From Patescibacteria group bacterium (GTDB lineage: Bacteria > Patescibacteriota > Minisyncoccia > Minisyncoccales > PWPS01): DNA of 34,109 bases. A model generated the notes under the pieces. It saw nothing but the letters and a program-made list of their open reading frames with translations, made no database searches and was not told the origin of the DNA. Location of the stretch: positions 1 through 34,109 of the forward strand of contig JAYEKQ010000041.1 in the NCBI GenBank assembly GCA_034661095.1, in the 5' to 3' direction. The position numbers and the translations under genes are program-made. Below, piece by piece: positions 3,533 to 32,518 of this stretch. Within the stretch, counting starts at the first letter, position 1. Each line of letters starts with the position of its first letter.

Positions 3533-3685
3533 GTTGACTTCCGAAATCAACAACAGTCAACAAATGTATTCTGTCATTCTGAACAAAGCGAAGAATCCCG
3601 CTATTCTTTCAATGCAGTGAGATTCTTCGGCTATCGCCTCAGAATGACAGTAAGATGCTTGTTGACTTCCAAAGTCAACAAACAG
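3533..3685. repeat. GTCATTCTGA/GAAGAATC inverted-repeat element flanked by imperfect ~24-nt direct repeats
   Basis: The left arm is 3573-3599 and the right arm is 3619-3648 (+AGTAAGATG). The flanks are GTTGACTTCCGAAATCAACAACAG (3533-3556) and GTTGACTTCCAAAGTCAACAAACAG (3661-3685), each itself a small hairpin. Confidence 0.8.
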
Positions 3686-3783
3686 TGATTTAATGGGAAA
3701 TAAAGGGAAAGCGATTACAATAACTTGATAGAATAAATATAGGAAAGGGATTTTGGATAAATCAATGAAAACCTCAAAACAAA

Positions 3784-3811
3784 GGCAGGCATATTTTCTG
3801 CCGGCTTTTTT
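3784..3811. terminator. Orphan terminator-like hairpin with no convincing upstream ORF
   Basis: A GGCAG/CTGCC stem is followed by GGCTTTTTT and preceded by an A-rich tract. Only micro-ORFs lie upstream. Confidence 0.3.
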
Positions 3812-3892
3812 AATTAACTAAAACTTTATAATTGTAGTTTATTAAGATATAATAAAAAAATAACTGTGGCGACTGAATATTTTAACTTTAAT

Positions 3893-4099
3893 ATGAATAA
3901 ACATCTCTCTTTGATTTTAAGGAAAACTATAGGAGTTATCCTTATCATACTTGGTTTGATCGGAGGACTTATTCCGATACCACTCGTTCCTTTCTTTCTG
4001 CTTATTTTTGTTGGTCTTTCTCTTTTTGGAGTCAAAAAAGAAACAGTAGAAAAAGTTAAATTAAAAAAAGAAGAGTTTATAAAAAAGATTTTTAAATAA
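3893..4099 (+). CDS. Small membrane protein, possibly PGPGW-like
   Basis: A hydrophobic core 'GVILIILGLIGGLIPIPLVPFFLLIFVGLSLFG' is followed by a Lys-rich tail. I prefer the ATG at 3893 to the GTG at 3866. The overlapping antisense ORF 3826..4131 looks spurious. Confidence 0.55.
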   Translation: MNKHLSLILRKTIGVILIILGLIGGLIPIPLVPFFLLIFVGLSLFGVKKETVEKVKLKKEEFIKKIFK

Positions 4100-4176
4100 A
4101 AAAAACAAAACAATTTTAATATTTTTACCAATGATTAATATGACAAAAAAAACATATAAAGATATAGAGTAGAATT

Positions 4177-4884
4177 ATGAATTACAATAATTTTATAAAA
4201 AGTGAGTTAAAAAGTAGGGCGGATGAAGAAAGGAGAAAGACTTCTCAGTATTTTTTTAAGACAGGAAAAGGAGAGTATGGAGAAGGTGATGTTTTTTTAG
4301 GGGTTACTGTTCCCGATTCAAGAAAAATAGCTAAGAAATATAGTGGTATAAGTCTAAGAGAGTTGATCGGAGTACTCCACTCAAAAATTCATGAAGAAAG
4401 ATTTGTTGCTCTTTTGATTTTAATAAATAAATTTGAAAAAGGGTCAGATAGAGAAAAAGAAGAAGCAGTTAAATTTTATCTTGATAATTTAAAATGGATA
4501 AACAATTGGGATCTCGTAGATGTTTCGGCATATAAGATATTAGGAAGTTATCTTTTTGACAAAGATAAAGATGTTCTTTATAATCTAGTTGTCTCAGAAA
4601 ATCTTTGGGAAAGAAGAATTGCAATTATATCAACACTTCACTTTATCAAAAATAACAGTTTCACTGATACCTTTCAAATTTCAGAAATACTTTTGGAAGA
4701 CGATCACGATCTGATCCACAAAGCAGTTGGGTGGATGCTAAGAGAAGTTGGAAATAAATCTTTGCAAACAGAGGTTAAGTTTTTAAATAAATATTATAAA
4801 AAGATGCCACGAACGATGCTTCGCTATGCAGTTGAAAAATTTCCTGAAGATCTTCGGTTAAAATACTTAAAAGGAGAAGTTTAA
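4177..4884 (+). CDS. DNA alkylation repair protein (AlkC/AlkD-like HEAT-repeat family)
   Basis: The 235-aa ORF has the family-typical features 'FFKTGKGEYGEGDVFLGV..P..RKIAKKY', 'WINNWDLVD' and 'VGWMLRE'. Confidence 0.8.
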   Translation: MNYNNFIKSELKSRADEERRKTSQYFFKTGKGEYGEGDVFLGVTVPDSRKIAKKYSGISLRELIGVLHSKIHEERFVALLILINKFEKGSDREKEEAVKFYLDNLKWINNWDLVDVSAYKILGSYLFDKDKDVLYNLVVSENLWERRIAIISTLHFIKNNSFTDTFQISEILLEDDHDLIHKAVGWMLREVGNKSLQTEVKFLNKYYKKMPRTMLRYAVEKFPEDLRLKYLKGEV

Positions 4885-4895
4885 TATATATTAAA

Positions 4896-5318
4896 ATGGC
4901 TAAAATTATTAAAAATTCTTTTTTAAAAACATTAAATGGTTTTGCAAAACTAATACCAGTTATTATTAGTGTTATTCTTTTTATTAGCTTAATTATTGCC
5001 GTAGTTCCAAAAAGTTTTTATTCAAAAATTTTTACTGGAAACATTGCACTAGACTCTCTAACTGCTGGAATTTTAGGAAGTATAAGTGTTGGTAATCCTA
5101 TGGTTAGTTATATTATTGGAGGAGAGATATTGGCAGAGAGGGTAAATTTAATCGCTATTACTGTCTTTCTTTTAACTTGGATTAGTGTTGGAGTTGTTGG
5201 ACTGCCCGTTGAAATAAAAGCACTAGGGAAGAGGTTTGCAATAACGAGAAACATTCTTAGTTTTCTAACAGCATTTATTATTGCTGGTTTGACGGTTTTG
5301 ACGATATCTTTTTTATGA
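4896..5318 (+). CDS. Putative permease subunit, first of two adjacent membrane proteins
   Basis: This 140-aa polytopic hydrophobic ORF has a stop that overlaps the next start (ATGA). The family assignment is uncertain. Confidence 0.6.
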   Translation: MAKIIKNSFLKTLNGFAKLIPVIISVILFISLIIAVVPKSFYSKIFTGNIALDSLTAGILGSISVGNPMVSYIIGGEILAERVNLIAITVFLLTWISVGVVGLPVEIKALGKRFAITRNILSFLTAFIIAGLTVLTISFL

Positions 5319-5845
5319 TTAAAAAAAACAAAAAAAGAATAAACGGAACATATTTTTTTATTACTATTGTTCTTTTCTCTTACTTGATTTTATTTCTAAC
5401 AAATAACACTTTATTTAATAAATCTTTGGAGCAATTTTTTAGTATTGTTAAAGAGATTACCCCGTTATTTATTATTGTTTTTGTTTTAATGTTTGTTTTT
5501 AATTTGTTTTTAACCGAAAAAAGAGTAGCAAAAATTCTTGGAGAAAGCGCAGGAGCAAAGGGTTGGTTAATATCAATAATAGGAGGTATTTTATCAATGG
5601 GTCCTGTTTATATATGGTATCCTCTTTTAAGTGATCTTCAAAAAAAGGGAATGAAAAACTCTTTTATCGTTACTTTTCTTTACAACAGGGCGATCAAACT
5701 TCCTCTTCTTCCTATGATGGCCTACTATTTTGGGGTTCTTTTCGCTGTAGTTCTTACTTCTTATATGATTATCTTTTCTATTATTAATGGTTTATTAGTT
5801 AATAAATTTTTAAAATATGAAAATAGCAATAGCAGTAAACAATAA
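5315..5845 (+). CDS. Putative permease subunit, second of the pair
   Basis: This 176-aa polytopic hydrophobic ORF is translationally coupled to the preceding ORF. Confidence 0.6.
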   Translation: MIKKNKKRINGTYFFITIVLFSYLILFLTNNTLFNKSLEQFFSIVKEITPLFIIVFVLMFVFNLFLTEKRVAKILGESAGAKGWLISIIGGILSMGPVYIWYPLLSDLQKKGMKNSFIVTFLYNRAIKLPLLPMMAYYFGVLFAVVLTSYMIIFSIINGLLVNKFLKYENSNSSKQ

Positions 5846-12642: not shown

Positions 12643-13917
12643 GTGAACAGTTTTCCAGTAAAAAAATTAATTATATTTTTTTTAATAGCAGTTTTAATGA
12701 TTACTGTTGTTTTTCTATTTACTATTTTTTATTCTGAAAAAATAAAAGCACCAGTTCATATTTCTGCAGAACCATTATCTTATAATGAGATATTTGTTTC
12801 TTGGGAAGAAGATGAGGAAATTAGCCACTATAATGTATATAGGGCAACAGACCAGAGTAACTCATATATTAAAATAGACTATACAAAAAAAGGAGAGTAT
12901 ATAGATAAAGACTTGATGCCTAGTACAGTATATTATTATAAAGTGACAAAAGTTGTTAATTATGAAGAAAGTGATTACAGCTCAAGAGCAAGTGTTTCTA
13001 CTAAACCAGTAATGCCAACGGGATTAAAAGCAACCTCTGAAGATTTTCAAGAAACAATGCGTCTTCAAGTTAACCTTGACTGGAACTACTCTTTTGTTGC
13101 TGACAACTATAATATATATAGATCTTCTCAAGAAGAGGGTCCTTATGAAAAAATAGGAACAAGTAGTGTTGAGAGTTATGCCGATAATGACATTGAACAG
13201 GAAACGGTCTATTATTACACTATTACACAGGTTACAAATAATATAGAAAGTGTTTATAGTGATGTTGTAGAAGTTTTAACATCTGAAGAGTGGGTTTGTG
13301 GTGATATTATTAATTACGGAGGAAAAGATTATGAAACAGTAATAATCGGATCAAACTGTTGGTTTAATGAAAATTTAGATATTAGTGAAGAGGATGTTCA
13401 ATATGATTGTTCAGTTAAGAGATCTTGTTATCGTGGAGATTGTGATATCTATGGAGGGCAGTATGATTTTACATCTGCTTCCTGTAATCAAAAAAAAGAA
13501 GGTACAAGAGGTATCTGTCCCGTTGGATGGCGAATTCCTACTGATGATGACTGGGCTAATCTTGAAATTTCAATAGGGATGGATGAAGAAGAAGTAAATA
13601 CTTATGGATTTCGTGGAAGTAATGAAGCAAGCAAGATTTCTGATGGATATGAATTATGGTACCCTGGAGAACTAAGAGAGGATAAAGATTTTTCAACCTC
13701 TTCTTTTAACATTCTTCCAGGAGGATTTTGTGAATGGAAGCGTCGTAGAGCAGGAGAGGGAGTTGCTTTCTGGTCATCAACACCTTCTGAAGGAGATGCT
13801 GATTGTCGTCGTCACGGATACAGAGTAAGGATTTTAAAATATGATAATAATAAAATAATGCTAAATTGCTTTGTAAGTGACTATAAGGCTTATATTCGCT
13901 GTGCAAGGTCTTTGTAA
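12643..13917 (+). CDS. Membrane-anchored surface protein: two FN3-like domains plus a Cys-rich FISUMP (Fibrobacter succinogenes major paralogous) domain
   Basis: It has an N-terminal TM and two 'W....Y.VYR......Y.KI.......Y.D..L...T.YYYKV' FN3 repeats. The FISUMP signature is 'DYETVIIGSNCWFNENL...CY...C..YGGQY....A...CPVGWRIPTDDDW'. The start is GTG. Confidence 0.85.
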   Translation: MNSFPVKKLIIFFLIAVLMITVVFLFTIFYSEKIKAPVHISAEPLSYNEIFVSWEEDEEISHYNVYRATDQSNSYIKIDYTKKGEYIDKDLMPSTVYYYKVTKVVNYEESDYSSRASVSTKPVMPTGLKATSEDFQETMRLQVNLDWNYSFVADNYNIYRSSQEEGPYEKIGTSSVESYADNDIEQETVYYYTITQVTNNIESVYSDVVEVLTSEEWVCGDIINYGGKDYETVIIGSNCWFNENLDISEEDVQYDCSVKRSCYRGDCDIYGGQYDFTSASCNQKKEGTRGICPVGWRIPTDDDWANLEISIGMDEEEVNTYGFRGSNEASKISDGYELWYPGELREDKDFSTSSFNILPGGFCEWKRRRAGEGVAFWSSTPSEGDADCRRHGYRVRILKYDNNKIMLNCFVSDYKAYIRCARSL

Positions 13918-13918
13918 T

Positions 13919-15154
13919 ATGAATATTCAAAAAACAAAAGAACTATTTTTAAATAATAAAAAAATATTACTACTTGTCTTAGGTGGGGTTTTAATCTTTT
14001 TTATCTTGATATTGTTTTTAATACTTTCTACTCCGGAAGCAAAACCCCCCTTTGATCTTCGTGCCGAAGCAAGGGATTATGACAAAGTAAACCTTACTTG
14101 GCTTGATGAAAGTGATGGAGAAGAGTATAATGTATATCGTTCTTTATCTTTAAAAGAGGATTATGAAAAAATTGAAACAGTAGAAGATAGACACTATCTT
14201 GACTGGGATATTGAACCAGAAACAAATTACTATTACAAAGTAACCTCAGTTAAAAAAGAAAAAGAAAGTGGTTTTAGTTCTGTGGTTCAAGTGTTTACTG
14301 AAAATGTTGGCGAAGTAAGAAATTTAACTGTAAAAGAAGCAGGAAGTAGTTATGTCAACCTTTCGTGGGAAGGATTTAGAGATAGTAACGGCTATATAAT
14401 ATATAGAACCGAAGATGTAAATAAGCCATACTCAAGGATTGGATCAACAAACAATACTTACTACATTGATACAGAACTTGAAAGCGATAAAACATACTAC
14501 TATGCAGTTTCTCAAATTGTGAACGGGAAAGAAAGTGATTACAGCAATCAACATTTAGAAATAAAAACGGAGTATTACTGGTTTTGTGGATATGCTGTTA
14601 GTTATCAAGGAGAGCTTTATAATACAGTTAATATTGGAGAACAGTGCTGGTTCAGTAGCAATTTAAATTATCCAACCGCAACTGGAAGTTGGTGTTATGG
14701 TAATGATATTGAGAACTGTTTTCTTTATGGAAGGTTATATAATTTTGAAACAGCAGTGAATGGAGATGAAGATATTTGTCCTGAAGGATGGAGAGTTCCA
14801 ACCGACAATGATTTTGTAAAATTAGAAGAAGAGATGGGAGTCAGTGAAGTAGAAGTTGTTAATCAAGGATGGAGAGGAGAGGAAAGAGGCATTGGTGATA
14901 AGCTAAAAACAGAAGATTACTGTTCACAAACAAATAACCGTTTTTGTGGAACAGTAGATCTTGATGTTAAGATGGGGGGAATCAGAGAGGAAGACGGAGA
15001 GTTTTTGTATTTTGGAACTCGCTCTTTCTTTTGGACTTCAAATTCAGATCAAGATTTTGGATGGATTCGTGGTTTTGGAAGAGAAAAAGCAGGTATTTAT
15101 AGGGGGTTAGAAAACAAAGAAGCAGGGTTTTTTATTCGATGTATTAAAAGTTAA
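13919..15154 (+). CDS. Paralogous membrane-anchored FN3 x2 + FISUMP-domain surface protein
   Basis: The architecture is the same: 'YNTVNIGEQCWFSSNL...CYGN....C.LYGRLYNF..A......CPEGWRVPTDNDF'. I prefer the ATG at 13919, 1 nt after the upstream stop. Confidence 0.85.
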   Translation: MNIQKTKELFLNNKKILLLVLGGVLIFFILILFLILSTPEAKPPFDLRAEARDYDKVNLTWLDESDGEEYNVYRSLSLKEDYEKIETVEDRHYLDWDIEPETNYYYKVTSVKKEKESGFSSVVQVFTENVGEVRNLTVKEAGSSYVNLSWEGFRDSNGYIIYRTEDVNKPYSRIGSTNNTYYIDTELESDKTYYYAVSQIVNGKESDYSNQHLEIKTEYYWFCGYAVSYQGELYNTVNIGEQCWFSSNLNYPTATGSWCYGNDIENCFLYGRLYNFETAVNGDEDICPEGWRVPTDNDFVKLEEEMGVSEVEVVNQGWRGEERGIGDKLKTEDYCSQTNNRFCGTVDLDVKMGGIREEDGEFLYFGTRSFFWTSNSDQDFGWIRGFGREKAGIYRGLENKEAGFFIRCIKS

Positions 15155-27934: not shown

Positions 27935-28040
27935 CATCTTATATCCCCAATTTTTAATTATGTTTGGTTTTTTTCCAGACATATTTTATTTTGTAAATTT
28001 AATCATCAGAAGAAACTATTTTTAACAAGTAAAATTCAAA

Positions 28041-30050
28041 ATGATAACAAAAATTGAAAAAAGAAATGGACAGGTAGTAGATTTTGATATTCAGAAAATA
28101 GAAAATGCTATTCACAAGGCATTAACTTTTACAAAAAAAGGAGATGCTGGTGAAGCAACAGCTCTTTCTGAAAAGGTTTTTGAGGTTCTTCTGAAAAGGT
28201 TTAGCAAGGATGAAGTGCCTACTATTGAAGATATTCAGAACATTGTAGAAGAAGTTTTAATAATGGAAGGATTTACTGATACTGCTCGTAGCTACATTCT
28301 TTACCGAGAAAAAAGAAGAGAAGTGAGAGACGCTTTGTCACAATTAGAAGATTCAAGTGAAATTCTTGAAAAATACATAGAAGAACTTGATTGGGAGGTG
28401 AAAGAAAATGCTAATATGACTTATTCTCTTCAAGGATTAAATCAGCATGCAACTTCTCACATTTCAAAAAAATACTGGTTAAATAAAATATATCCTCACG
28501 AGATAAGAGAGGCCGCAAAAAATCAAGATTTTCATATTCATGATTTGAATTTACTTGCTACTTATTGTTGTGGTTGGGATTTACAAGATCTTTTACTGAG
28601 AGGGTTTGGAGGTGTTCCTTCTAAAATAGAGTCAAAGCCACCAAAACATTTTCGTCCAGCATTAGGACAGGTAGTGAACTTCTTTTTCACTCTTCAAGGA
28701 GAAAGTGCTGGAGCTCAAGCAATGAGTAATTTTGATACCTTGTTAGCTCCTTTTATAAGATATGATAATTTAAATTACAAACAAGTTAAGCAATCAATAC
28801 AAGAATTTCTCTTCAACTGTATGGTTCCTACTCGTGTAGGATTTCAAACTCCATTTTTAAATGTTTCCTTGGATATTAAGGTTCCAACATTTTTAAGAAA
28901 TCAACCAGTTATTATTGGTGGTGAAGTAAAAAGAGAAGTATATGGAGAATTTCAGAAAGAAGTTGATATTTTTAATAAGGCTTTTTATGAGTGCCTAATG
29001 GAGGGTGACTCCAAAGGAAGAGTTTTCACTTTTCCTATTCCAACTATTTCTATTGCAAAAGATTTTGACTGGGACAATGAGAGTCTTGTTCCGATGTGGG
29101 AAGCAACGGCAAAATATGGAGTAAATTACTTCTCAAACTTTATTCAGTCAGATATGAATCCTGAAGATTTTCGCAGTATGTGTTGTCGTTTGCGGTTAAA
29201 TAACAAGGAATTGATAAAGAGAGGAGGTGGACTTTTTGGCTCGCAACCACTTACTGGTTCAATTGGAGTTTGCACTATTAACTTGCCACGAATAGGATAT
29301 TTATCAAAAAATAAAGATGAGTTTTATAACAGGTTAGGAGCAGTAATGGATCTTGCAAAGGAAAGTTTAGAAATAAAAAGAAAAGCAGTTAATAATTTTA
29401 TTGAAAAAGGGCTTTATCCTTACTCTAAGTACTATCTTTCTTCAGTAAAAAAAATGCGTGGATCTTATTTTGGAAATCACTTTTCTACAATTGGTCTTAT
29501 TGGAATGAATGAAGCACTTTTAAATTTTATTGGAGAAGGAACTGGATCTGAGGAAGGAAGGAAACTTGCAGTAGAAATTCTTGACTTTATGCGTGACAAA
29601 CTTGTTGATTATCAAACAAAAACAGGAAATCTTTATAATTTAGAAGCAACTCCAGGTGAAGGGGCCGCTTATCGCCAAGCGAGCATAGACAAGAAGCGAT
29701 ATCCAGACATTATAACCGCTGGGACAAAAGATGTTCCTTATTACACAAATTCTGTTCATCTTCCAGTTGGACATACCGATGATCCGTTTGAAGCTCTTGA
29801 ACTTCAAGATGAACTTCAGCAAAAATTTACAGGAGGAACTGTTCTTCACTTGTTTTTAGGGGAAAGATTAGCAAGTGCTGAAGGAGCAAAAAACCTTGTA
29901 AAAAAAGTATTAAACAATTATCATTTACCATATATAACAATTACTCCTACTTTCTCAGTTTGTCCTAATTGTGGATATCTGAAAGGGGAGCAGTACTACT
30001 GCCCTAATTGTAAAATAAAAGGTCCTAAAAAAGTAATAAAAAAAATATAA
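28041..30050 (+). CDS. nrdD: Anaerobic (class III) ribonucleoside-triphosphate reductase large chain, lacking the glycyl-radical loop
   Basis: It has an N-terminal ATP-cone, 'MCCRLRL', 'NLEATPGEG', and a C-terminal Zn ribbon 'CPNCGYLKGEQYYCPNC', then 'KIKGPKKVIKKI*'. No R(V/I)xGY motif is present. Confidence 0.93.
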   Translation: MITKIEKRNGQVVDFDIQKIENAIHKALTFTKKGDAGEATALSEKVFEVLLKRFSKDEVPTIEDIQNIVEEVLIMEGFTDTARSYILYREKRREVRDALSQLEDSSEILEKYIEELDWEVKENANMTYSLQGLNQHATSHISKKYWLNKIYPHEIREAAKNQDFHIHDLNLLATYCCGWDLQDLLLRGFGGVPSKIESKPPKHFRPALGQVVNFFFTLQGESAGAQAMSNFDTLLAPFIRYDNLNYKQVKQSIQEFLFNCMVPTRVGFQTPFLNVSLDIKVPTFLRNQPVIIGGEVKREVYGEFQKEVDIFNKAFYECLMEGDSKGRVFTFPIPTISIAKDFDWDNESLVPMWEATAKYGVNYFSNFIQSDMNPEDFRSMCCRLRLNNKELIKRGGGLFGSQPLTGSIGVCTINLPRIGYLSKNKDEFYNRLGAVMDLAKESLEIKRKAVNNFIEKGLYPYSKYYLSSVKKMRGSYFGNHFSTIGLIGMNEALLNFIGEGTGSEEGRKLAVEILDFMRDKLVDYQTKTGNLYNLEATPGEGAAYRQASIDKKRYPDIITAGTKDVPYYTNSVHLPVGHTDDPFEALELQDELQQKFTGGTVLHLFLGERLASAEGAKNLVKKVLNNYHLPYITITPTFSVCPNCGYLKGEQYYCPNCKIKGPKKVIKKI

Positions 30051-30051
30051 T

Positions 30052-30360
30052 ATGAAAAAAAATATATTTTCTACAAAAGAAAAAGCAATTGAAGCGCGAA
30101 AATGTTTTGATTGTAGTTGCGAAATAAAAATTGAAGGAAGAGAGATAAAAAATGGAGTTCTCTTGCAGTATGAAGATAATGGTGAAGAGCTTTTTACGAT
30201 GAAATGTAACAACTGCTACGAAAAAAACGAAGGAATTACTGACTATAAAGAATGTGAAGTTTATTCAAGAATTGTCGGTTATCTTCGTCCAGTCAATAAC
30301 TACAATCCAGGAAAAAGAAAAGAATATGAAGAAAGAAAAGAATATATTGCAAAAGTATGA
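30052..30360 (+). CDS. Separate small protein carrying a Zn ribbon and the NrdD glycyl-radical motif
   Basis: The 102-aa ORF contains 'CFDC...CNNC...EVYSRIVGYLRPVNNYNPGKRKEYEERKEY', matching the canonical NrdD C-terminus (RxxGY...W/YNxGKxxE). The junction is TAAtATG with the upstream stop and ATGA with nrdG. Confidence 0.8.
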   Translation: MKKNIFSTKEKAIEARKCFDCSCEIKIEGREIKNGVLLQYEDNGEELFTMKCNNCYEKNEGITDYKECEVYSRIVGYLRPVNNYNPGKRKEYEERKEYIAKV

Positions 30361-31055
30361 AAATAGGCGGATTACAAAAATTAACACTAATTGATTACCC
30401 AGGATCGGTTGCCTGTACAGTTTTTCTTTCTGGTTGTAACTTTCGTTGTCCGTGGTGTTATTCAGCGGAACTTGTTTTACCAGAAAAGATTGAAAACCAA
30501 GTAGAAATAGAACAGAAAGAGTTTTTTAAGTTTTTGGAGCGAAGAGAAAAAACTCTTGATGGAGTTGTTATTTGTGGCGGAGAAGCAACCACAAATCCTT
30601 CTCTTCCTGAATTTGCAAGAAAGATAAAAGAGATGGGATTTAAAGTTAAACTAGATACTAACGGCTCTAACCCTCAGATGTTAAATCGTCTTCTTAAAGA
30701 AAAACTGTTGGATTATATTGCAATGGATGTCAAAAACAGCTTTGAAAAATATAGTGAAACAGTTGGAGTTGATTGTGACATTGAAAAGATAAAAAAAAGC
30801 ATTGATCTTATAAAAAATTCAGGAATAGACTACGAGTTTAGAACAACACTTGTTCCAGGAATTCATACTGAAGAGGATATAGAGAAGATAGGAAAAGCGG
30901 TTAAATCAGCAGAAAAATACTTTTTACAAAACTTTCTTCCCGAAAAAACAATCTACGGAGGATTTGTAGAAAAAACACCTTTTACAAAAGAACAGTTAGA
31001 AAAATTTAAAGAAAAAGTATCTCCTTTTGTTAAAAAGTGTGAAATAAGAAGTTAG
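30357..31055 (+). CDS. nrdG: Anaerobic ribonucleoside-triphosphate reductase activating protein (radical SAM)
   Basis: Features are 'DYPG', the 'CNFRCPWCY' CxxxCxxC cluster and 'GGE' motifs. Confidence 0.9.
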   Translation: MKIGGLQKLTLIDYPGSVACTVFLSGCNFRCPWCYSAELVLPEKIENQVEIEQKEFFKFLERREKTLDGVVICGGEATTNPSLPEFARKIKEMGFKVKLDTNGSNPQMLNRLLKEKLLDYIAMDVKNSFEKYSETVGVDCDIEKIKKSIDLIKNSGIDYEFRTTLVPGIHTEEDIEKIGKAVKSAEKYFLQNFLPEKTIYGGFVEKTPFTKEQLEKFKEKVSPFVKKCEIRS

Positions 31056-31075: not shown

Positions 31076-31105
31076 GTGCCGATTTTTAATCGGCACTTTT
31101 GTTTT
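31076..31105 (+). terminator. Rho-independent terminator after nrdG
   Basis: An 8-bp stem (GTGCCGAT/ATCGGCAC) with a 5-nt loop is followed by TTTTGTTTT. Confidence 0.7.
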
Positions 31106-31144
31106 GACTTTTATTTTAATTGCTTTATTATTAAAATTAAAATT

Positions 31145-32518
31145 ATGAAAATTTTAATTGCCTATTACTCTAGAACAAAAGAAATAGAAAAATTAGCAGA
31201 AAGAATAGAAGAAAAGTTAAAAAAAGAAGGGCATTCTGTTGATGTGGAAAAAATAATTCCAGCAAAAGAACACGACTGGTTTTTTTGGTTTTTCTTAAGA
31301 ATTTTCAAAGGAGAGTGCGACATAGAGCCACTAAAAATAAAAGATGCTACTGATTATGATTTAGTTCTTGTTGGTAGTCCTAACTGGACACGGCTTTCGT
31401 TACCTGTAGCGAGATACCTTAAAGAGATAAAAGGAATAATGTATAAAAATGTTGCTTTGTTTTCAACAACATTTGCTCCACCCACGGTTGAGCGGTATTC
31501 TCTTTCAGGATATTTGCTTGATTTTAACTTTAATAAAATTGTTGAAAAAAAAGGAGGTAGAGCAGTAGATACGATGCTAATTTCAAGTGCTTTTAAAAAA
31601 TGGGGGGTTGATTCTGATTACGGAAAAGAAAGAATTAGTAGGTTTTGTAGAAAGGCAACATCATCAGTTGTATCTTTTAAGGACTATTTTTTAAAACGAA
31701 AAGAAGTTCAAAATTTTCGTTTTCTTATAATTTTATTTTCTTTTTTGCTTTTACTTATTCTTGTCCTAAGAGTTGCTTTTGACAAAATTATTGCTGATAT
31801 TATTCTTTGGAGAGATTTTTCAGTAATTGTTATAATTCTGTTTTTTGCTTTTATTATATTAACACTGATTAGAAATAACAAAAAATTGTTTTTTTTGGGA
31901 AAATATATCTCTAGTTTTTCAGTAATTTTTGCGTGGACTCTTTTTATCTTTTATCTTTCGCCAGAATTAGGAATGGGGCGTTTAATGATGACAGGATATA
32001 TTTTTATCTTTGTTCTGTTTTCTTCTTTTCGCGATGAAATAATAGTCGCATTTTCAGGATTAATAGTGCTGTTGGGTTATATCTCTTTATTTTGCTTATT
32101 AACAGAAAAAGAATTTTTTAATATTGGATTAGATATGGGAATAATTGCAGGAAGTTGTTTTCTTTTTGTTTGGTTTACAGGAACTTTCCGAAACTACTAC
32201 TCAGTATTACTAGATGCTCAAGATGAGGTTGAAAAATCACGAAGAAGTTTAGAAGAAAAAGTTAAATTAAAAACAAAAGAGTTAAACGAGTTAAACGAAG
32301 GATTAGAAAAAGAGGTTGAGAAAAGAACCTCAAAAATAGAAGAACAAAAGAAAGAACTAAAAAAGAAGGTTGATTATTTGGAGCGATTTGGAAAAATAAC
32401 AGTAGGAAGAGAAGTCAAAATGAAAGACTTAAAAGAAGAAATAGAAGTATTAAAGAGAGAAAAAGAAGAGTTAGAAGAGAGAAAGGACATAGGACACGAA
32501 CCAAATAATGAAGAATAA
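31145..32518 (+). CDS. Flavodoxin-like domain + multi-TM region + C-terminal coiled-coil module (paralogous to the HAMP protein tail)
   Basis: 'MKILIAYYSRTKEIEKLAERI' is a flavodoxin-like fold, but the T/SxTGxT phosphate loop is degenerate. About 6 TM segments follow. The C-terminus 'KTKELNELNEGLE...RT...LERFGKITVGREVKMKDLKEEIEVLK' aligns with residues of 10027..11013. I prefer the ATG at 31145. Confidence 0.75.
   Translation: MKILIAYYSRTKEIEKLAERIEEKLKKEGHSVDVEKIIPAKEHDWFFWFFLRIFKGECDIEPLKIKDATDYDLVLVGSPNWTRLSLPVARYLKEIKGIMYKNVALFSTTFAPPTVERYSLSGYLLDFNFNKIVEKKGGRAVDTMLISSAFKKWGVDSDYGKERISRFCRKATSSVVSFKDYFLKRKEVQNFRFLIILFSFLLLLILVLRVAFDKIIADIILWRDFSVIVIILFFAFIILTLIRNNKKLFFLGKYISSFSVIFAWTLFIFYLSPELGMGRLMMTGYIFIFVLFSSFRDEIIVAFSGLIVLLGYISLFCLLTEKEFFNIGLDMGIIAGSCFLFVWFTGTFRNYYSVLLDAQDEVEKSRRSLEEKVKLKTKELNELNEGLEKEVEKRTSKIEEQKKELKKKVDYLERFGKITVGREVKMKDLKEEIEVLKREKEELEERKDIGHEPNNEE

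What the first reader, a model, noticed from the sequence alone, without database searches (positions are those of the whole stretch)
29940..30360. Class III RNR is split, with the glycyl-radical loop encoded by a separate 102-codon ORF with its own Zn ribbon, or hidden by an A8 homopolymer frameshift
Seen directly: the 669-aa NrdD ORF contains the ATP-cone, the catalytic barrel motifs and a complete CxxC-x10-CxxC ribbon (CPNCGYLKGEQYYCPNC). It then stops after KIKGPKKVIKKI without any RxxGY glycyl-radical motif. One nucleotide later (TAAtATG) a 102-aa ORF begins. This ORF carries a second ribbon (CFDC...CNNC) followed at canonical spacing by EVYSRIVGYLRPVNNYNPGKRKEYEERKEY, the NrdD glycyl-radical signature. 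Its stop overlaps the nrdG start (ATGA). Established knowledge: in characterised NrdD enzymes (E. coli, phage T4) the Zn ribbon and radical glycine are the C-terminus of the same polypeptide. Free-standing glycyl-radical 'spare part' proteins are known for pyruvate formate-lyase (GrcA/YfiD). I know of no NrdD equivalent. Inference: this may be a two-polypeptide class III RNR with a replaceable radical-bearing subunit. Caveat seen in the sequence: frame 1 is open only from 30040, and an A8 run (30038-30045) precedes the stop. A single-base indel there, whether an assembly error or programmed slippage, would fuse both ORFs into one ~770-aa protein with a duplicated ribbon.
Basis: partly seen in the sequence, partly recalled or inferred. 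Interest (0 to 1): 0.65.

Follow-up and report, generated by a model that had tools for sequence, protein, structure and literature searches.

The report
Split anaerobic RNR with detachable radical subunit
This bacterium's oxygen-sensitive DNA-precursor enzyme (class III ribonucleotide reductase) carries its radical-bearing tip on a separate, conserved 102-residue protein, and relatives of that small protein sit in oxidative-stress operons, which points to the first "spare-part" radical subunit outside pyruvate formate-lyase.

Summary
nrdD (28041-30050, 669 aa) ends after a Cys4 ribbon and has no radical glycine. A 102-aa ORF (30052-30360) supplies a second ribbon and the CEVYSRIVGYLRP glycyl-radical loop, and its stop overlaps the nrdG start.

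The A8 caveat does not hold up. Thirteen other species-level CPR/Patescibacteria genomes have the same truncated nrdD with a conserved tail. Their small ORF sits at frame offset 0, 1 or 2, with gaps of 1-34 nt. Each has its own conserved ATG, and dN/dS is 0.05-0.12. The truncated NrdD bodies are monophyletic (50/50 bootstraps), so there was one ancient truncation event.

The small protein belongs to a large unnamed family: 430 clusters at 50% identity reach E<=1e-10, and the best 150 are all 42-159 aa. Relatives occur next to a complete nrdD (8 loci) or unlinked from it (24 loci). Of the unlinked loci, 13 lie beside Fur, rubrerythrin, superoxide reductase, SOD or hemerythrin genes, against 0 of 136 control loci. 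Three such genomes also carry an intact NrdD elsewhere.

A June 2026 review says spare-part proteins are known only for formate lyases.

Best reading: a two-polypeptide class III RNR whose radical subunit descends from a GrcA-like NrdD spare part. Biochemistry is untested.

The parts
27959..27983 (+). Terminator-like hairpin after ftsZ; upstream boundary of the nrdD operon
28041..30050 (+). nrdD core subunit (669 aa): ATP-cone, NxN flap (aa 123-125), alpha/beta barrel, MCCR finger loop, residual Cys4 ribbon. It has no radical glycine.
   Evidence: NF006126 994 bits, model positions 2-649 of 684
28050..28322 (+). ATP-cone domain (aa 4-94)
   Evidence: PF03477, 73 bits
29178..29189 (+). MCCR double-cysteine finger-loop motif (aa 380-383), the expected acceptor of the glycyl radical
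   Evidence: motif classification from PMC9669993
29961..30011 (+). ORF1 Zn-ribbon CPNC-x9-CPNC (aa 641-657). All four Cys are conserved in the 14 split-clade loci. Most fused relatives have CPxH in the first knuckle.
30012..30047 (+). Conserved basic C-terminal tail KIKGPKKVIKKI. KIKGP aligns with TIKQP of fused NrdDs, and the rest replaces the Gly loop.
30038..30045 (+). A8 run. It is the only place where a -1 nt (or +2 nt) indel could fuse the ORFs. It is not conserved in relatives.
30048..30054 (+). Junction TAA-t-ATG: the ORF1 stop, a 1-nt spacer and the ORF2 start (+1 frame). The layout suggests translational coupling.
30052..30360 (+). Autonomous glycyl-radical subunit (102 aa): clade-specific N-terminal helix, its own Cys4 ribbon with a beta-hairpin insert, Cys68, the radical loop and a C-terminal helix
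30103..30216 (+). ORF2 Zn-ribbon CFDC-x30-CNNC (aa 18-55). The four Cys and Asp20 are invariant in 114 family members. AF2 pLDDT is 86-89 here.
30253..30291 (+). Glycyl-radical loop CEVYSRIVGYLRP (aa 68-80); the predicted radical residue Gly76 is at 30277-30279
   Evidence: (aligns with T. maritima NrdD 612-645)
30357..31055 (+). nrdG activase (232 aa, radical SAM, CxxxCxxC at aa 27-34). Its start overlaps the ORF2 stop (ATGA).
   Evidence: (TIGR02495 218 bits)
31076..31096 (+). Terminator-like hairpin with a T-run; downstream boundary of the operon

Best explanation
The window encodes a three-gene operon, nrdD-core, grd and nrdG, for a class III ribonucleotide reductase whose catalytic unit is made of two polypeptides.

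The 669-aa core has everything except the radical glycine. It ends just after its Zn ribbon, roughly where an O2-cleaved NrdD would be left without a working Gly loop.

The 102-aa protein is a complete, self-contained glycyl-radical domain: its own Cys4 ribbon plus the Gly76 loop.

Inferred mechanism: NrdG abstracts the H atom from Gly76 on the free or loosely docked small subunit. The small subunit then inserts its loop into the core barrel next to the MCCR finger loop and delivers the radical in trans. After O2 damage, which cleaves the chain at the radical glycine, only the 12-kDa piece needs replacing.

Inferred evolution: the small subunit descends from a wider family of free-standing NrdD-type glycyl-radical proteins. 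In related CPR bacteria these coexist with an intact NrdD and are often encoded in Fur/PerR-type oxidative-stress operons, so they are probable NrdD spare parts analogous to GrcA/YfiD for PFL. In the window's clade, NrdD then lost its own Gly loop in a single event, and the spare part became an obligate subunit.

What is shown: the gene anatomy, conservation, selection, family distribution and genomic context.

What is inferred: activation by NrdG, docking in trans, repair function, and the direction of evolution.
For: 1. Complementary domain content. ORF1 covers NF006126 positions 2-649 and ORF2 covers 643-682.

2. The truncation falls at the ribbon/Gly-loop boundary. Fused relatives read ...CPKCTIKQP-CEVYSRIVGY..., and ORF1 reads ...CPNCKIKGP-KKVIKKI*.

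3. Thirteen further genomes have the same conserved ORF1 tail. Their ORF2 lies at frame offset 0 (L001, L003, L017), 1 or 2, with a gap of 1-34 nt and a conserved ATG and N-terminus.

4. Purifying selection. For the window against L001, ORF2 omega = 0.118 and the ORF1 tail 0.032. For L018/L024 and L017/L019, ORF2 omega = 0.048.

5. The truncated NrdD bodies are monophyletic in 50 of 50 bootstraps and nest within fused CPR NrdDs.

6. Family size. There are 167 clusters at 90% identity, and all 120 listed are 86-171 aa. There are 430 clusters at 50% identity with E<=1e-10, and the best 150 are all 42-159 aa. C18, D20, C21, C52, C55, C68, G76, Y77, R79 and P80 are invariant.

7. Eight loci have a complete NrdD plus the small gene plus nrdG. 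The small protein's Gly loop is 81-100% identical to its own NrdD and 68-77% identical to non-cognate ones.

8. Twenty-four loci are unlinked. Of these, 13 have an adjacent Fur, rubrerythrin, desulfoferrodoxin, SOD or hemerythrin gene, against 0 of 136 other loci (Fisher p = 6e-13). Two independent metagenome contigs show the same context: L161, and L162 with Fur-GRD-Prx-Rbr-Dfx.

9. Three genomes carry both an unlinked small gene and an intact NrdD: L012/L050, L020/L066 and L014/L087.

10. Terminator-like hairpins bracket nrdD-ORF2-nrdG, with none on the + strand between them.

11. Published cryo-EM and HDX data show that the NrdD GRD (Zn site plus Gly loop) moves as a mobile rigid body (PMC11226230). 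YfiD sets the precedent for complementation by a free GRD (PMC13450708).
Against: - There is no biochemical, proteomic or transcript evidence. All genomes involved are MAGs.
- The ORF2 AF2 model is only moderate (pLDDT 77.8; the Gly loop is 63-70), and Foldseek found no PDB match.
- A core/small-subunit complex could not be modelled with the tools available.
- The small-protein tree is unresolved (split clade monophyletic in 8 of 100 bootstraps). The direction from spare part to obligate subunit therefore rests on the NrdD tree and on distribution, not on a rooted small-protein phylogeny.
- The oxidative-stress context belongs to relatives, not to the window, which has no such genes.
- The controls for the enrichment test are nrdD-centred loci, and the query proteins came from the unlinked loci themselves.
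- Why ORF1 keeps its own ribbon is unexplained.
- In the window and 6 other loci the two frames overlap by 8-37 nt, so an occasional slippage-derived fusion product cannot be excluded.
Confidence: 0.75

Rival explanations
1. Assembly or sequencing error at the A8 homopolymer. The real gene would be a single 772-aa NrdD with an internal duplicated ribbon.
For: A one-base deletion in the A8 run (30038-30045) gives a continuous 772-aa ORF. Homopolymers are prone to indel errors. The window's exact ORF2 is not on record elsewhere, so there is no independent replicate of this exact sequence.
Against: Thirteen independently assembled genomes from different studies have the same stop and restart with different spacers and frames. 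The closest one, L001 (88% identical ORF2), has A5 and an in-frame TAA followed by a 12-nt spacer. None of the 120 listed family members is a ~770-aa fusion. The ORF1 tail and the ORF2 start are conserved as termini.
Confidence: 0.03
2. Programmed +1 ribosomal frameshifting or transcriptional slippage on the A8 run produces a fused NrdD, wholly or partly. The two-ORF appearance would then be a recoding device.
For: The A8 run lies exactly in the 8-nt window where both frames are open. Poly-A tracts support transcriptional slippage in AT-rich bacteria (my own knowledge). Seven of the 14 split loci have 8-37 nt of frame overlap.
Against: No site or offset is conserved. Offset 0 with an in-frame stop occurs in L001, L003 and L017. 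There is no overlap at all in L005 and L007, and only 1-2 nt in L008 and L026. A8 and A7 runs are abundant in this genome (56 A-runs of 7 or more). ORF2 has a conserved ATG and N-terminal extension. The same protein family is demonstrably free-standing elsewhere.
Confidence: 0.07
3. ORF1 is an inactivated or decaying nrdD remnant. ORF2 would be a spare part serving a different, intact NrdD encoded elsewhere in the genome.
For: Relatives of ORF2 do coexist with intact NrdD. Only 34 kb of this genome is visible.
Against: ORF1 is under strong purifying selection (omega 0.03) and scores 994 bits on the NrdD equivalog model. It retains the ATP-cone, NxN flap, MCCR motif and ribbon. It has been kept, with its specific tail, across a clade that has diverged to about 66-76% identity. 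No split-clade assembly reappears among the 80 best GRD-motif loci with a second copy.
Confidence: 0.08
4. The small protein is not a catalytic radical donor. It would be a regulator, an O2 sensor or a sacrificial radical sink that NrdG modifies, and the truncated core would obtain its radical some other way or have another function.
For: The link of relatives to Fur/oxidative-stress operons would also fit a sensor or sink. ORF1 keeps its own ribbon, which a simple split model does not require.
Against: The Gly loop is nearly identical to the catalytic loop of fused NrdDs and tracks the cognate NrdD sequence, as expected if it must fit the same barrel. No other radical source is encoded in the operon. 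A class III core without a glycyl radical has no known chemistry.
Confidence: 0.07

Closest known systems
GrcA/YfiD (and phage T4 Y06I), the autonomous glycyl radical cofactor of pyruvate formate-lyase
   Same: [quoted passage not shown] It can coexist with the intact enzyme. It is presumably activated by the cognate activase. It is linked to oxygen damage: YfiD rescues O2-cleaved PFL, and relatives of ORF2 sit in Fur/rubrerythrin/SOR/SOD operons.
   Different: It is homologous to the NrdD GRD, not the PFL GRD (only PF13597 hits, no PF01228). It carries a Cys4 Zn ribbon, which GrcA lacks. In the window's clade the host enzyme has lost its own Gly loop, so the small protein is obligatory rather than a spare. 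The 2026 review states that spare parts are known only for formate lyases (PMC13450708).
Canonical single-chain NrdD (E. coli, T4, T. maritima 4COI/4U3E, P. copri)
   Same: ATP-cone, barrel, finger-loop Cys, Zn site, Gly-loop sequence (aligns to T. maritima 612-645) and an adjacent NrdG.
   Different: The radical glycine is on a separate polypeptide. There are two ribbons in total: one vestigial or docking ribbon on the core and one on the small subunit, which has a roughly 20-residue hairpin insert.
Split class II RNR NrdJa/NrdJb (Pseudomonas aeruginosa; Thermus phage phiYS40) and the genes-in-pieces NrdA of Aeromonas phage Aeh1
   Same: An RNR catalytic subunit is encoded by two consecutive ORFs that assemble non-covalently (PMC9669993 ref 43; PMC3045599; PMC3653736).
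   Different: They belong to different RNR classes. In those enzymes the split does not isolate the radical-bearing element. The Aeh1 split was caused by a homing-endonuclease insertion, whereas here there is no intervening element (a 1-nt gap and no Rfam hit). Neither has a free-standing paralogue family.
Phage nrdD genes interrupted by group I introns, inteins or homing endonucleases (T4 nrdD/sunY intron; phiAS4 fragmented nrdD)
   Same: nrdD is annotated as more than one ORF (PMC3653736).
   Different: Those are interruptions that splicing removes, or they are unexplained recent fragmentations. Here the split is element-free and ancient, both ORFs are under purifying selection, and the downstream piece is an independently folding domain with its own metal site.

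Membership tests
Class III RNR catalytic subunit NrdD | NRDD alpha/beta-barrel domain scoring above the curated cutoff | tested here: met
   ORF1: PF13597 582 bits (cutoff 26); NF006126 994 bits (cutoff 548); TIGR02487 507 bits (cutoff 326)
Class III RNR catalytic subunit NrdD | Finger-loop cysteine motif (MGCR or MCCR) | tested here: met
   MCCR at aa 380-383; invariant in alignment A3
Class III RNR catalytic subunit NrdD | C-terminal Zn site followed by the radical glycine (RxxGY) on the same polypeptide | tested here: not met
   ORF1 has the ribbon but stops 12 residues later with no Gly loop. The loop (SRIVGY, Gly76) is on ORF2.
Class III RNR catalytic subunit NrdD | Cognate radical-SAM activase NrdG encoded adjacent | tested here: met
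   30357-31055; TIGR02495 218 bits (cutoff 131); CxxxCxxC at aa 27-34
Class III RNR catalytic subunit NrdD | NrdG-dependent glycyl radical and NTP reduction | not testable with these tools
   Needs anaerobic reconstitution and EPR
Autonomous glycyl-radical 'spare part' proteins (GrcA/YfiD type) | Small stand-alone protein homologous to the GRD of a glycyl radical enzyme | tested here: met
   102 aa. The family comprises 430 clusters at 50% identity with E<=1e-10, and the best 150 are 42-159 aa. The Gly loop aligns to the NrdD C-terminus.
Autonomous glycyl-radical 'spare part' proteins (GrcA/YfiD type) | Sequence membership in the PFL-type Gly_radical family (PF01228) | tested here: not met
   Only PF13597 (NRDD) hits; no PF01228. 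It is an analogue, not a homologue, of GrcA within the GRE superfamily.
Autonomous glycyl-radical 'spare part' proteins (GrcA/YfiD type) | Coexists with an intact copy of the target enzyme | tested here: inconclusive
   Met for relatives: 8 loci with a complete NrdD next door, and 3 same-genome pairs (L012/L050, L020/L066, L014/L087). Not met in the visible part of this genome, where NrdD is truncated. The whole genome is not available.
Autonomous glycyl-radical 'spare part' proteins (GrcA/YfiD type) | Functional link to oxygen damage or stress | tested here: inconclusive
   Genomic context only, and only for relatives: 13 of 24 unlinked loci against 0 of 136 controls, p = 6e-13, plus L161 and L162. 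There is no such context in the window.
Autonomous glycyl-radical 'spare part' proteins (GrcA/YfiD type) | Restores activity to the O2-cleaved enzyme after activation by the activase | not testable with these tools
   Biochemical assay required
Programmed frameshift / recoding site | Conserved slippery sequence and conserved frame offset among orthologues | tested here: not met
   Offsets 0, 1 and 2 all occur. There are in-frame stops in 3 loci and no frame overlap in 2. The A-run is absent in L001.
Mobile-element-split RNR genes (intron, intein or HEG) | Intervening intron, intein or endonuclease ORF, or split-intein motifs at the junction | tested here: not met
   The spacer is 1 nt. Rfam gathering search finds nothing in the window. 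The ORF1 tail is 12 aa, and the ORF2 N-terminus lacks the HN/C junction. The same N-terminal ribbon is present in free-standing family members.

The most novel reading that the evidence does not exclude
A widespread, unnamed family of free-standing NrdD-type glycyl-radical proteins constitutes a repair system for oxygen-damaged class III RNR. It would be expressed from Fur/PerR-type oxidative-stress operons. It would be the first spare-part system outside formate lyases. In at least one CPR clade, and convergently in ribbon-less form in Anaerolineae, Leptospirales, Caldimicrobium, Elusimicrobium and DPANN archaea, it has been fixed as an obligate, disposable radical subunit. That would give a modular class III RNR in which only a 6-12 kDa piece is sacrificed to O2.
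Probability: 0.55. Interest if true: 0.85.

Novelty: new variant of a known kind. Interest (0 to 1): 0.72.

Why it matters
Glycyl radical enzymes are destroyed irreversibly by O2, which cleaves the chain at the radical glycine. The only known countermeasure is GrcA/YfiD for pyruvate formate-lyase. A June 2026 review lists as open the question of whether spare parts exist for any other glycyl radical enzyme.

This locus and its relatives provide concrete, clonable candidates for class III RNR:
- a natural trans system (core, 12-kDa radical subunit and NrdG);
- sister systems with an intact NrdD plus the small protein;
- a genomic link to oxidative-stress regulons.

If confirmed, three things follow. 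It would show how strict anaerobes with tiny genomes keep making dNTPs through transient O2 exposure. It would give structural biologists a GRD that can be activated and studied apart from the barrel, which has been a long-standing obstacle to seeing the activase-GRD complex. It would also correct annotation of hundreds of "hypothetical" or mis-named 90-120-aa proteins and of "truncated" nrdD genes that pipelines may flag as pseudogenes.

Tried and rejected
- **Foldseek against the PDB.** The ORF2 model gave no meaningful match (best E = 1.2). An isolated GRD is not a compact fold comparable to part of a 650-aa chain, so this was uninformative.
- **Exact look-up of the window's ORF2.** It is not on record, so there is no independent replicate of this exact sequence.
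- **Rfam scan.** I scanned the window and six odd split loci for introns or ribozymes. The only hit was a cobalamin riboswitch in L058.
- **Small-protein NJ tree (96 columns).** It is too weakly resolved to root the family or to prove the direction of evolution. A first attempt with Biopython bootstrapping timed out.
- **Split intein or trans-splicing.** Rejected from the sequence. The ORF1 tail is 12 aa, there are no intein blocks, and the ORF2 N-terminal region is conserved in free-standing proteins.
- **CPxH to CPxC change in the ORF1 ribbon.** I considered it as compensation for the lost Cys of CEVYS. All 12 complete split-clade NrdDs and the independently split L149 have it, but so do 4 fused Omnitrophota NrdDs. 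It is therefore not split-specific, and I left it as an observation.
- **Modelling the core/small-subunit complex.** Not attempted.
- **Literature.** Five full-text searches and targeted reading of eight papers found no description of a split NrdD of this type or of an NrdD spare part. Absence from this library is not proof of absence.
Full report
**1. The observation**

- nrdD runs 28041-30050 (669 aa). It has an ATP-cone, the NRDD barrel (NF006126, 994 bits against a cutoff of 548), an NxN flap, the MCCR finger loop (aa 380-383) and a CPNC-x9-CPNC ribbon (aa 641-657).
- It ends KIKGPKKVIKKI-TAA and has no RxxGY motif.
- One nucleotide later (TAAtATG), a 102-codon ORF (30052-30360) begins in the +1 frame. 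It carries CFDC (18-21), CNNC (52-55), Cys68 and EVYSRIVGYLRP (Gly76).
- Its stop overlaps the start of nrdG (ATGA). nrdG matches TIGR02495 at 218 bits.
- Against the 684-position NrdD equivalog model, ORF1 covers positions 2-649 and ORF2 covers 643-682, so the two are complementary.
- Terminator-like hairpins at 27959-27983 and 31076-31096 bracket the three genes, with none on the + strand between them.

The A8 run (30038-30045) is real, and the ORF2 frame opens only at 30040. However, only A7 or A10 would fuse the ORFs (772 or 773 aa); A9 would not. A-runs of 7 or more occur 56 times in this 32%-GC window.

**2. The split is real and old**

A database search with ORF2 returned 167 clusters at 90% identity. 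All 120 listed are stand-alone proteins of 86-171 aa from Patescibacteria/CPR MAGs, with identity down to about 50%.

A scan of species-representative genomes for the CEVYSRIVG motif gave 80 loci, which I classified by tblastn and open-frame analysis.

Thirteen loci share the window's architecture: L001-5, L007, L008, L017-19, L021, L024 and L026. In these loci:
- NrdD ends in a conserved tail, C(P/S)xC-(K/R)(I/V)(K/E)xP-K(K/E)V(I/V)KK(I/L)N.
- ORF2 follows after 1-34 nt.
- The frame offset is 0 in L001, L003 and L017, where only a stop codon separates the ORFs. It is 1 or 2 in the others.
- In L005 and L007 the ORF2 frame is closed until after the ORF1 stop, so no single frameshift could join them.
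- The closest relative, L001 (ORF2 88% identical), has A5, an in-frame TAA and a 12-nt spacer.
- Every ORF2 has its own ATG and a clade-specific N-terminal segment (M.K.IFKKEKEAL).

Selection is purifying. For the window against L001, omega is 0.118 for ORF2 (dS 0.42) and 0.032 for the last 200 codons of ORF1. For L018/L024 and L017/L019, ORF2 omega is 0.048.

On a 633-column NrdD-body alignment, the truncated NrdDs are monophyletic in 50 of 50 bootstraps and nest within conventional CPR NrdDs.

This means one truncation event, followed by retention of both genes while NrdD diverged to about 66-76% identity. Assembly error and programmed frameshifting are therefore not tenable as general explanations.

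**3. Where the cut lies**

Conventional relatives read ...TPTFSICPxHGY..GEHFxCPKCTIKQP-CEVYSRIVGYLRPVxQWNxGK.... Split-clade ORF1 reads ...TPTFSVCPNCGY..GEQYYCPNCKIKGP-KKVIKKI*.

The core therefore keeps its ribbon and loses exactly the Gly-loop segment. It resembles an NrdD deprived of its radical loop, which is the state a spare part would have to complement.

ORF2 is not merely the missing tail. It is a complete GRD with its own four-Cys ribbon, widened by a beta-hairpin (AF2 pLDDT 86-89 over residues 10-60), followed by the loop. The loop aligns to T. maritima NrdD residues 612-645.

**4. The small protein belongs to a larger free-standing family**

An exhaustive profile search of 1.84 billion representatives found 4,106 hits at E<=1e-3 and 430 at E<=1e-10. 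The best 150 are all 42-159 aa, and most span the whole ribbon-plus-loop profile.

Neither Pfam nor NCBIfam has a dedicated model for this family. Source names range from "hypothetical protein" to "anaerobic ribonucleoside-triphosphate reductase".

Besides the split clade, there are two other contexts.

(a) *Next to a complete NrdD.* Eight loci (L032, L039-45) have a complete NrdD with its own CEVYSRIVGY, then a small GRD gene of 81-91 aa, then nrdG. There, the small protein's 33-residue loop segment is 81-100% identical to its own NrdD and 68-77% identical to non-cognate NrdDs. This fits a part that must enter the same barrel.

(b) *Unlinked.* Twenty-four loci have the small gene with no nrdD or nrdG within 4 kb. 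In 13 of them the immediate neighbours, mostly on the same strand, are a Fur-family regulator, rubrerythrin, desulfoferrodoxin (superoxide reductase), Fe/Mn SOD or hemerythrin.
- Example, L014: Fur 3682-4047, GRD 4001-4300, hemerythrin 4333-4773, rubrerythrin 4786-5367, SOR 5377-5745.
- None of 136 other loci (790 kb) contains any of these genes (Fisher p = 6e-13).
- Two independent metagenome contigs with precomputed Pfam calls show the same pattern: GRD-rubrerythrin in L161, and Fur-GRD-peroxiredoxin-rubrerythrin-desulfoferrodoxin in L162.
- Three genomes provably hold both an unlinked small gene and an intact NrdD: L012/L050, L020/L066 and L014/L087.

**5. Mechanism**

*Shown:* a three-gene operon; complementary domain content; conservation and selection on both ORFs; a free-standing family with oxidative-stress context in relatives.

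*Established knowledge:* O2 cleaves glycyl radical enzymes at the radical glycine. YfiD/GrcA, once activated by PFL-AE, replaces the damaged GRD of PFL (PMC13450708). [quoted passage not shown]

*Inferred:*
- NrdG activates Gly76 on the small subunit.
- The small subunit docks its loop beside the MCCR cysteines of the core and acts in trans.
- After O2 damage, only the 12-kDa piece is replaced.
- The family began as an NrdD spare part, and the window's clade then lost the resident loop.

The 1-nt TAA-t-ATG junction, the ATGA overlap and the absence of a clear Shine-Dalgarno sequence suggest translational coupling and near-stoichiometric synthesis.

**6. Comparison with what is known**

- The system works like GrcA/YfiD but is not a member of that family. 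It hits NRDD rather than Gly_radical, and it has a Zn ribbon.
- It is a class III RNR that fails one defining feature of NrdD: the radical glycine is not on the catalytic chain.
- It resembles split RNRs (NrdJa/b; Aeh1 NrdA-a/b: PMC9669993, PMC3045599). It differs from them in that the split isolates the cofactor-bearing domain, no mobile element is involved, and the small piece has free-living paralogues.
- Phage nrdD genes are interrupted by introns, inteins or HEGs (PMC3653736), which is a different phenomenon.
- Full-text searches found no description of an NrdD spare part or of this split. [quoted passage not shown]

**7. Limits**

- Everything rests on MAG sequence. There is no expression or biochemical evidence.
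- The AF2 model is moderate, and Foldseek was uninformative.
- The small-protein tree is unresolved.
- The stress-operon evidence concerns relatives, not this window.
- The enrichment controls are nrdD-centred loci.
- Why the core keeps a ribbon is unexplained.

**8. Verdict**

The A8 caveat is dismissed.

It is a new variant of known kinds (class III RNR; GRE spare part; split RNR). It has a well-supported family behind it and makes an explicitly open question directly testable.

Interest is 0.72. Confidence in the two-polypeptide model is 0.75, and in the broader spare-part reading about 0.55.

Noticed in passing
L049, L051, L058 (Anaerolineae); L143 (Leptospirales); L106 (Caldimicrobium); L149 (Elusimicrobium); L075 (CPR); L056, L064 (Iainarchaeia): These look like independent, polyphyletic splits of nrdD at the same boundary. 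A truncated nrdD is followed by a 48-70-aa ORF that carries only the (C)EVYSR(I/V)VGY loop with no ribbon, and then by nrdG. Spacers range from an overlap to about 260 nt, and Rfam finds no intron. Some may be frameshift artefacts: L056 has an A7 at the junction, and L049 is very close to the fused L046 and L048.
   Followed up: partly
Small GRD proteins in L012, L020, L023, L035 (..CC); L015 (SCDC); L040/L041 (TCC); L043 (CDGC); L106 (GCGCGS); L149 (GCSCGCDK); L075 (ACGCN): Many free-standing GRD proteins end in a Cys pair or Cys-rich tail. This is reminiscent of the redox-active C-terminal tails that re-reduce class I and class II RNRs, and it could relate to the thioredoxin-type MCCR NrdDs. 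The window's ORF2 ends IAKV and lacks such a tail.
   Followed up: no
L001-L004, L007 (nrdD open frames of 988-1311 aa); also L066, L072, L076, L077: Close relatives of the window's nrdD carry large in-frame insertions. The tblastn matches break near ORF1 residues ~270 and ~381, the latter at the MCCR finger loop. These are presumably inteins. The window's own nrdD (669 aa) has none. Not verified with domain searches.
   Followed up: no
L058:1514-1655: A cobalamin riboswitch (RF00174, 53.9 bits) lies upstream of the truncated nrdD in a Pelolinea MAG, implying B12-dependent repression of the class III RNR.
   Followed up: no
L014:3682-4300; L162:3282-3797 (P0117): The Fur-family regulator gene overlaps the start of the small GRD gene by about 45 nt. 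One gene caller merged the two into a 171-aa 'FUR+NRDD' protein. The overlap suggests tight co-expression and possibly autoregulated, stress-responsive synthesis.
   Followed up: partly
window 29961-29972 (ORF1 CPNC) compared with relatives: The first ribbon knuckle is CPxC in all 12 complete split-clade NrdDs and in the independently split L149. It is CPxH in about 104 of the 123 NrdDs examined. Four fused Omnitrophota NrdDs also have CPxC, so the change is not strictly tied to the split.
   Followed up: partly
window 30055-30062: A second A8 run lies immediately after the ORF2 start codon (ATG AAA AAA AAT). It encodes the conserved MKK N-terminus and is another homopolymer where sequencing errors could mislead gene callers.
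   Followed up: no
window 31076-32518 (+): A 480-aa ORF downstream of nrdG has no Pfam hit. The likely true start is the ATG at 31145 (MKILIAYYSRT..., which looks like a flavodoxin N-terminus). This is followed by several hydrophobic segments and a Lys/Glu-rich coiled-coil tail. A flavodoxin-like protein next to nrdG could be its reductant; untested.
   Followed up: no
window 12643-15154 (+): Two adjacent paralogous ORFs (424 and 425 aa) carry Fib_succ_major domains, one also with an fn3 domain. They are probably surface proteins of this CPR bacterium.
   Followed up: no
L064, about 4150-4380: In one Iainarchaeia locus a thioredoxin/glutaredoxin-like small ORF sits between the short GRD ORF and nrdG. 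This fits thioredoxin-dependent turnover in this NrdD subfamily.
   Followed up: no
L037, L038 (Syntrophales): Free-standing ribbon-containing GRD proteins (~117 aa, 40% identical to ORF2) also occur outside CPR, in Syntrophales MAGs, with no nrdD within 4 kb and no oxidative-stress neighbours. Many of the 110-135-aa hits in the exhaustive search may be of this type.
   Followed up: no
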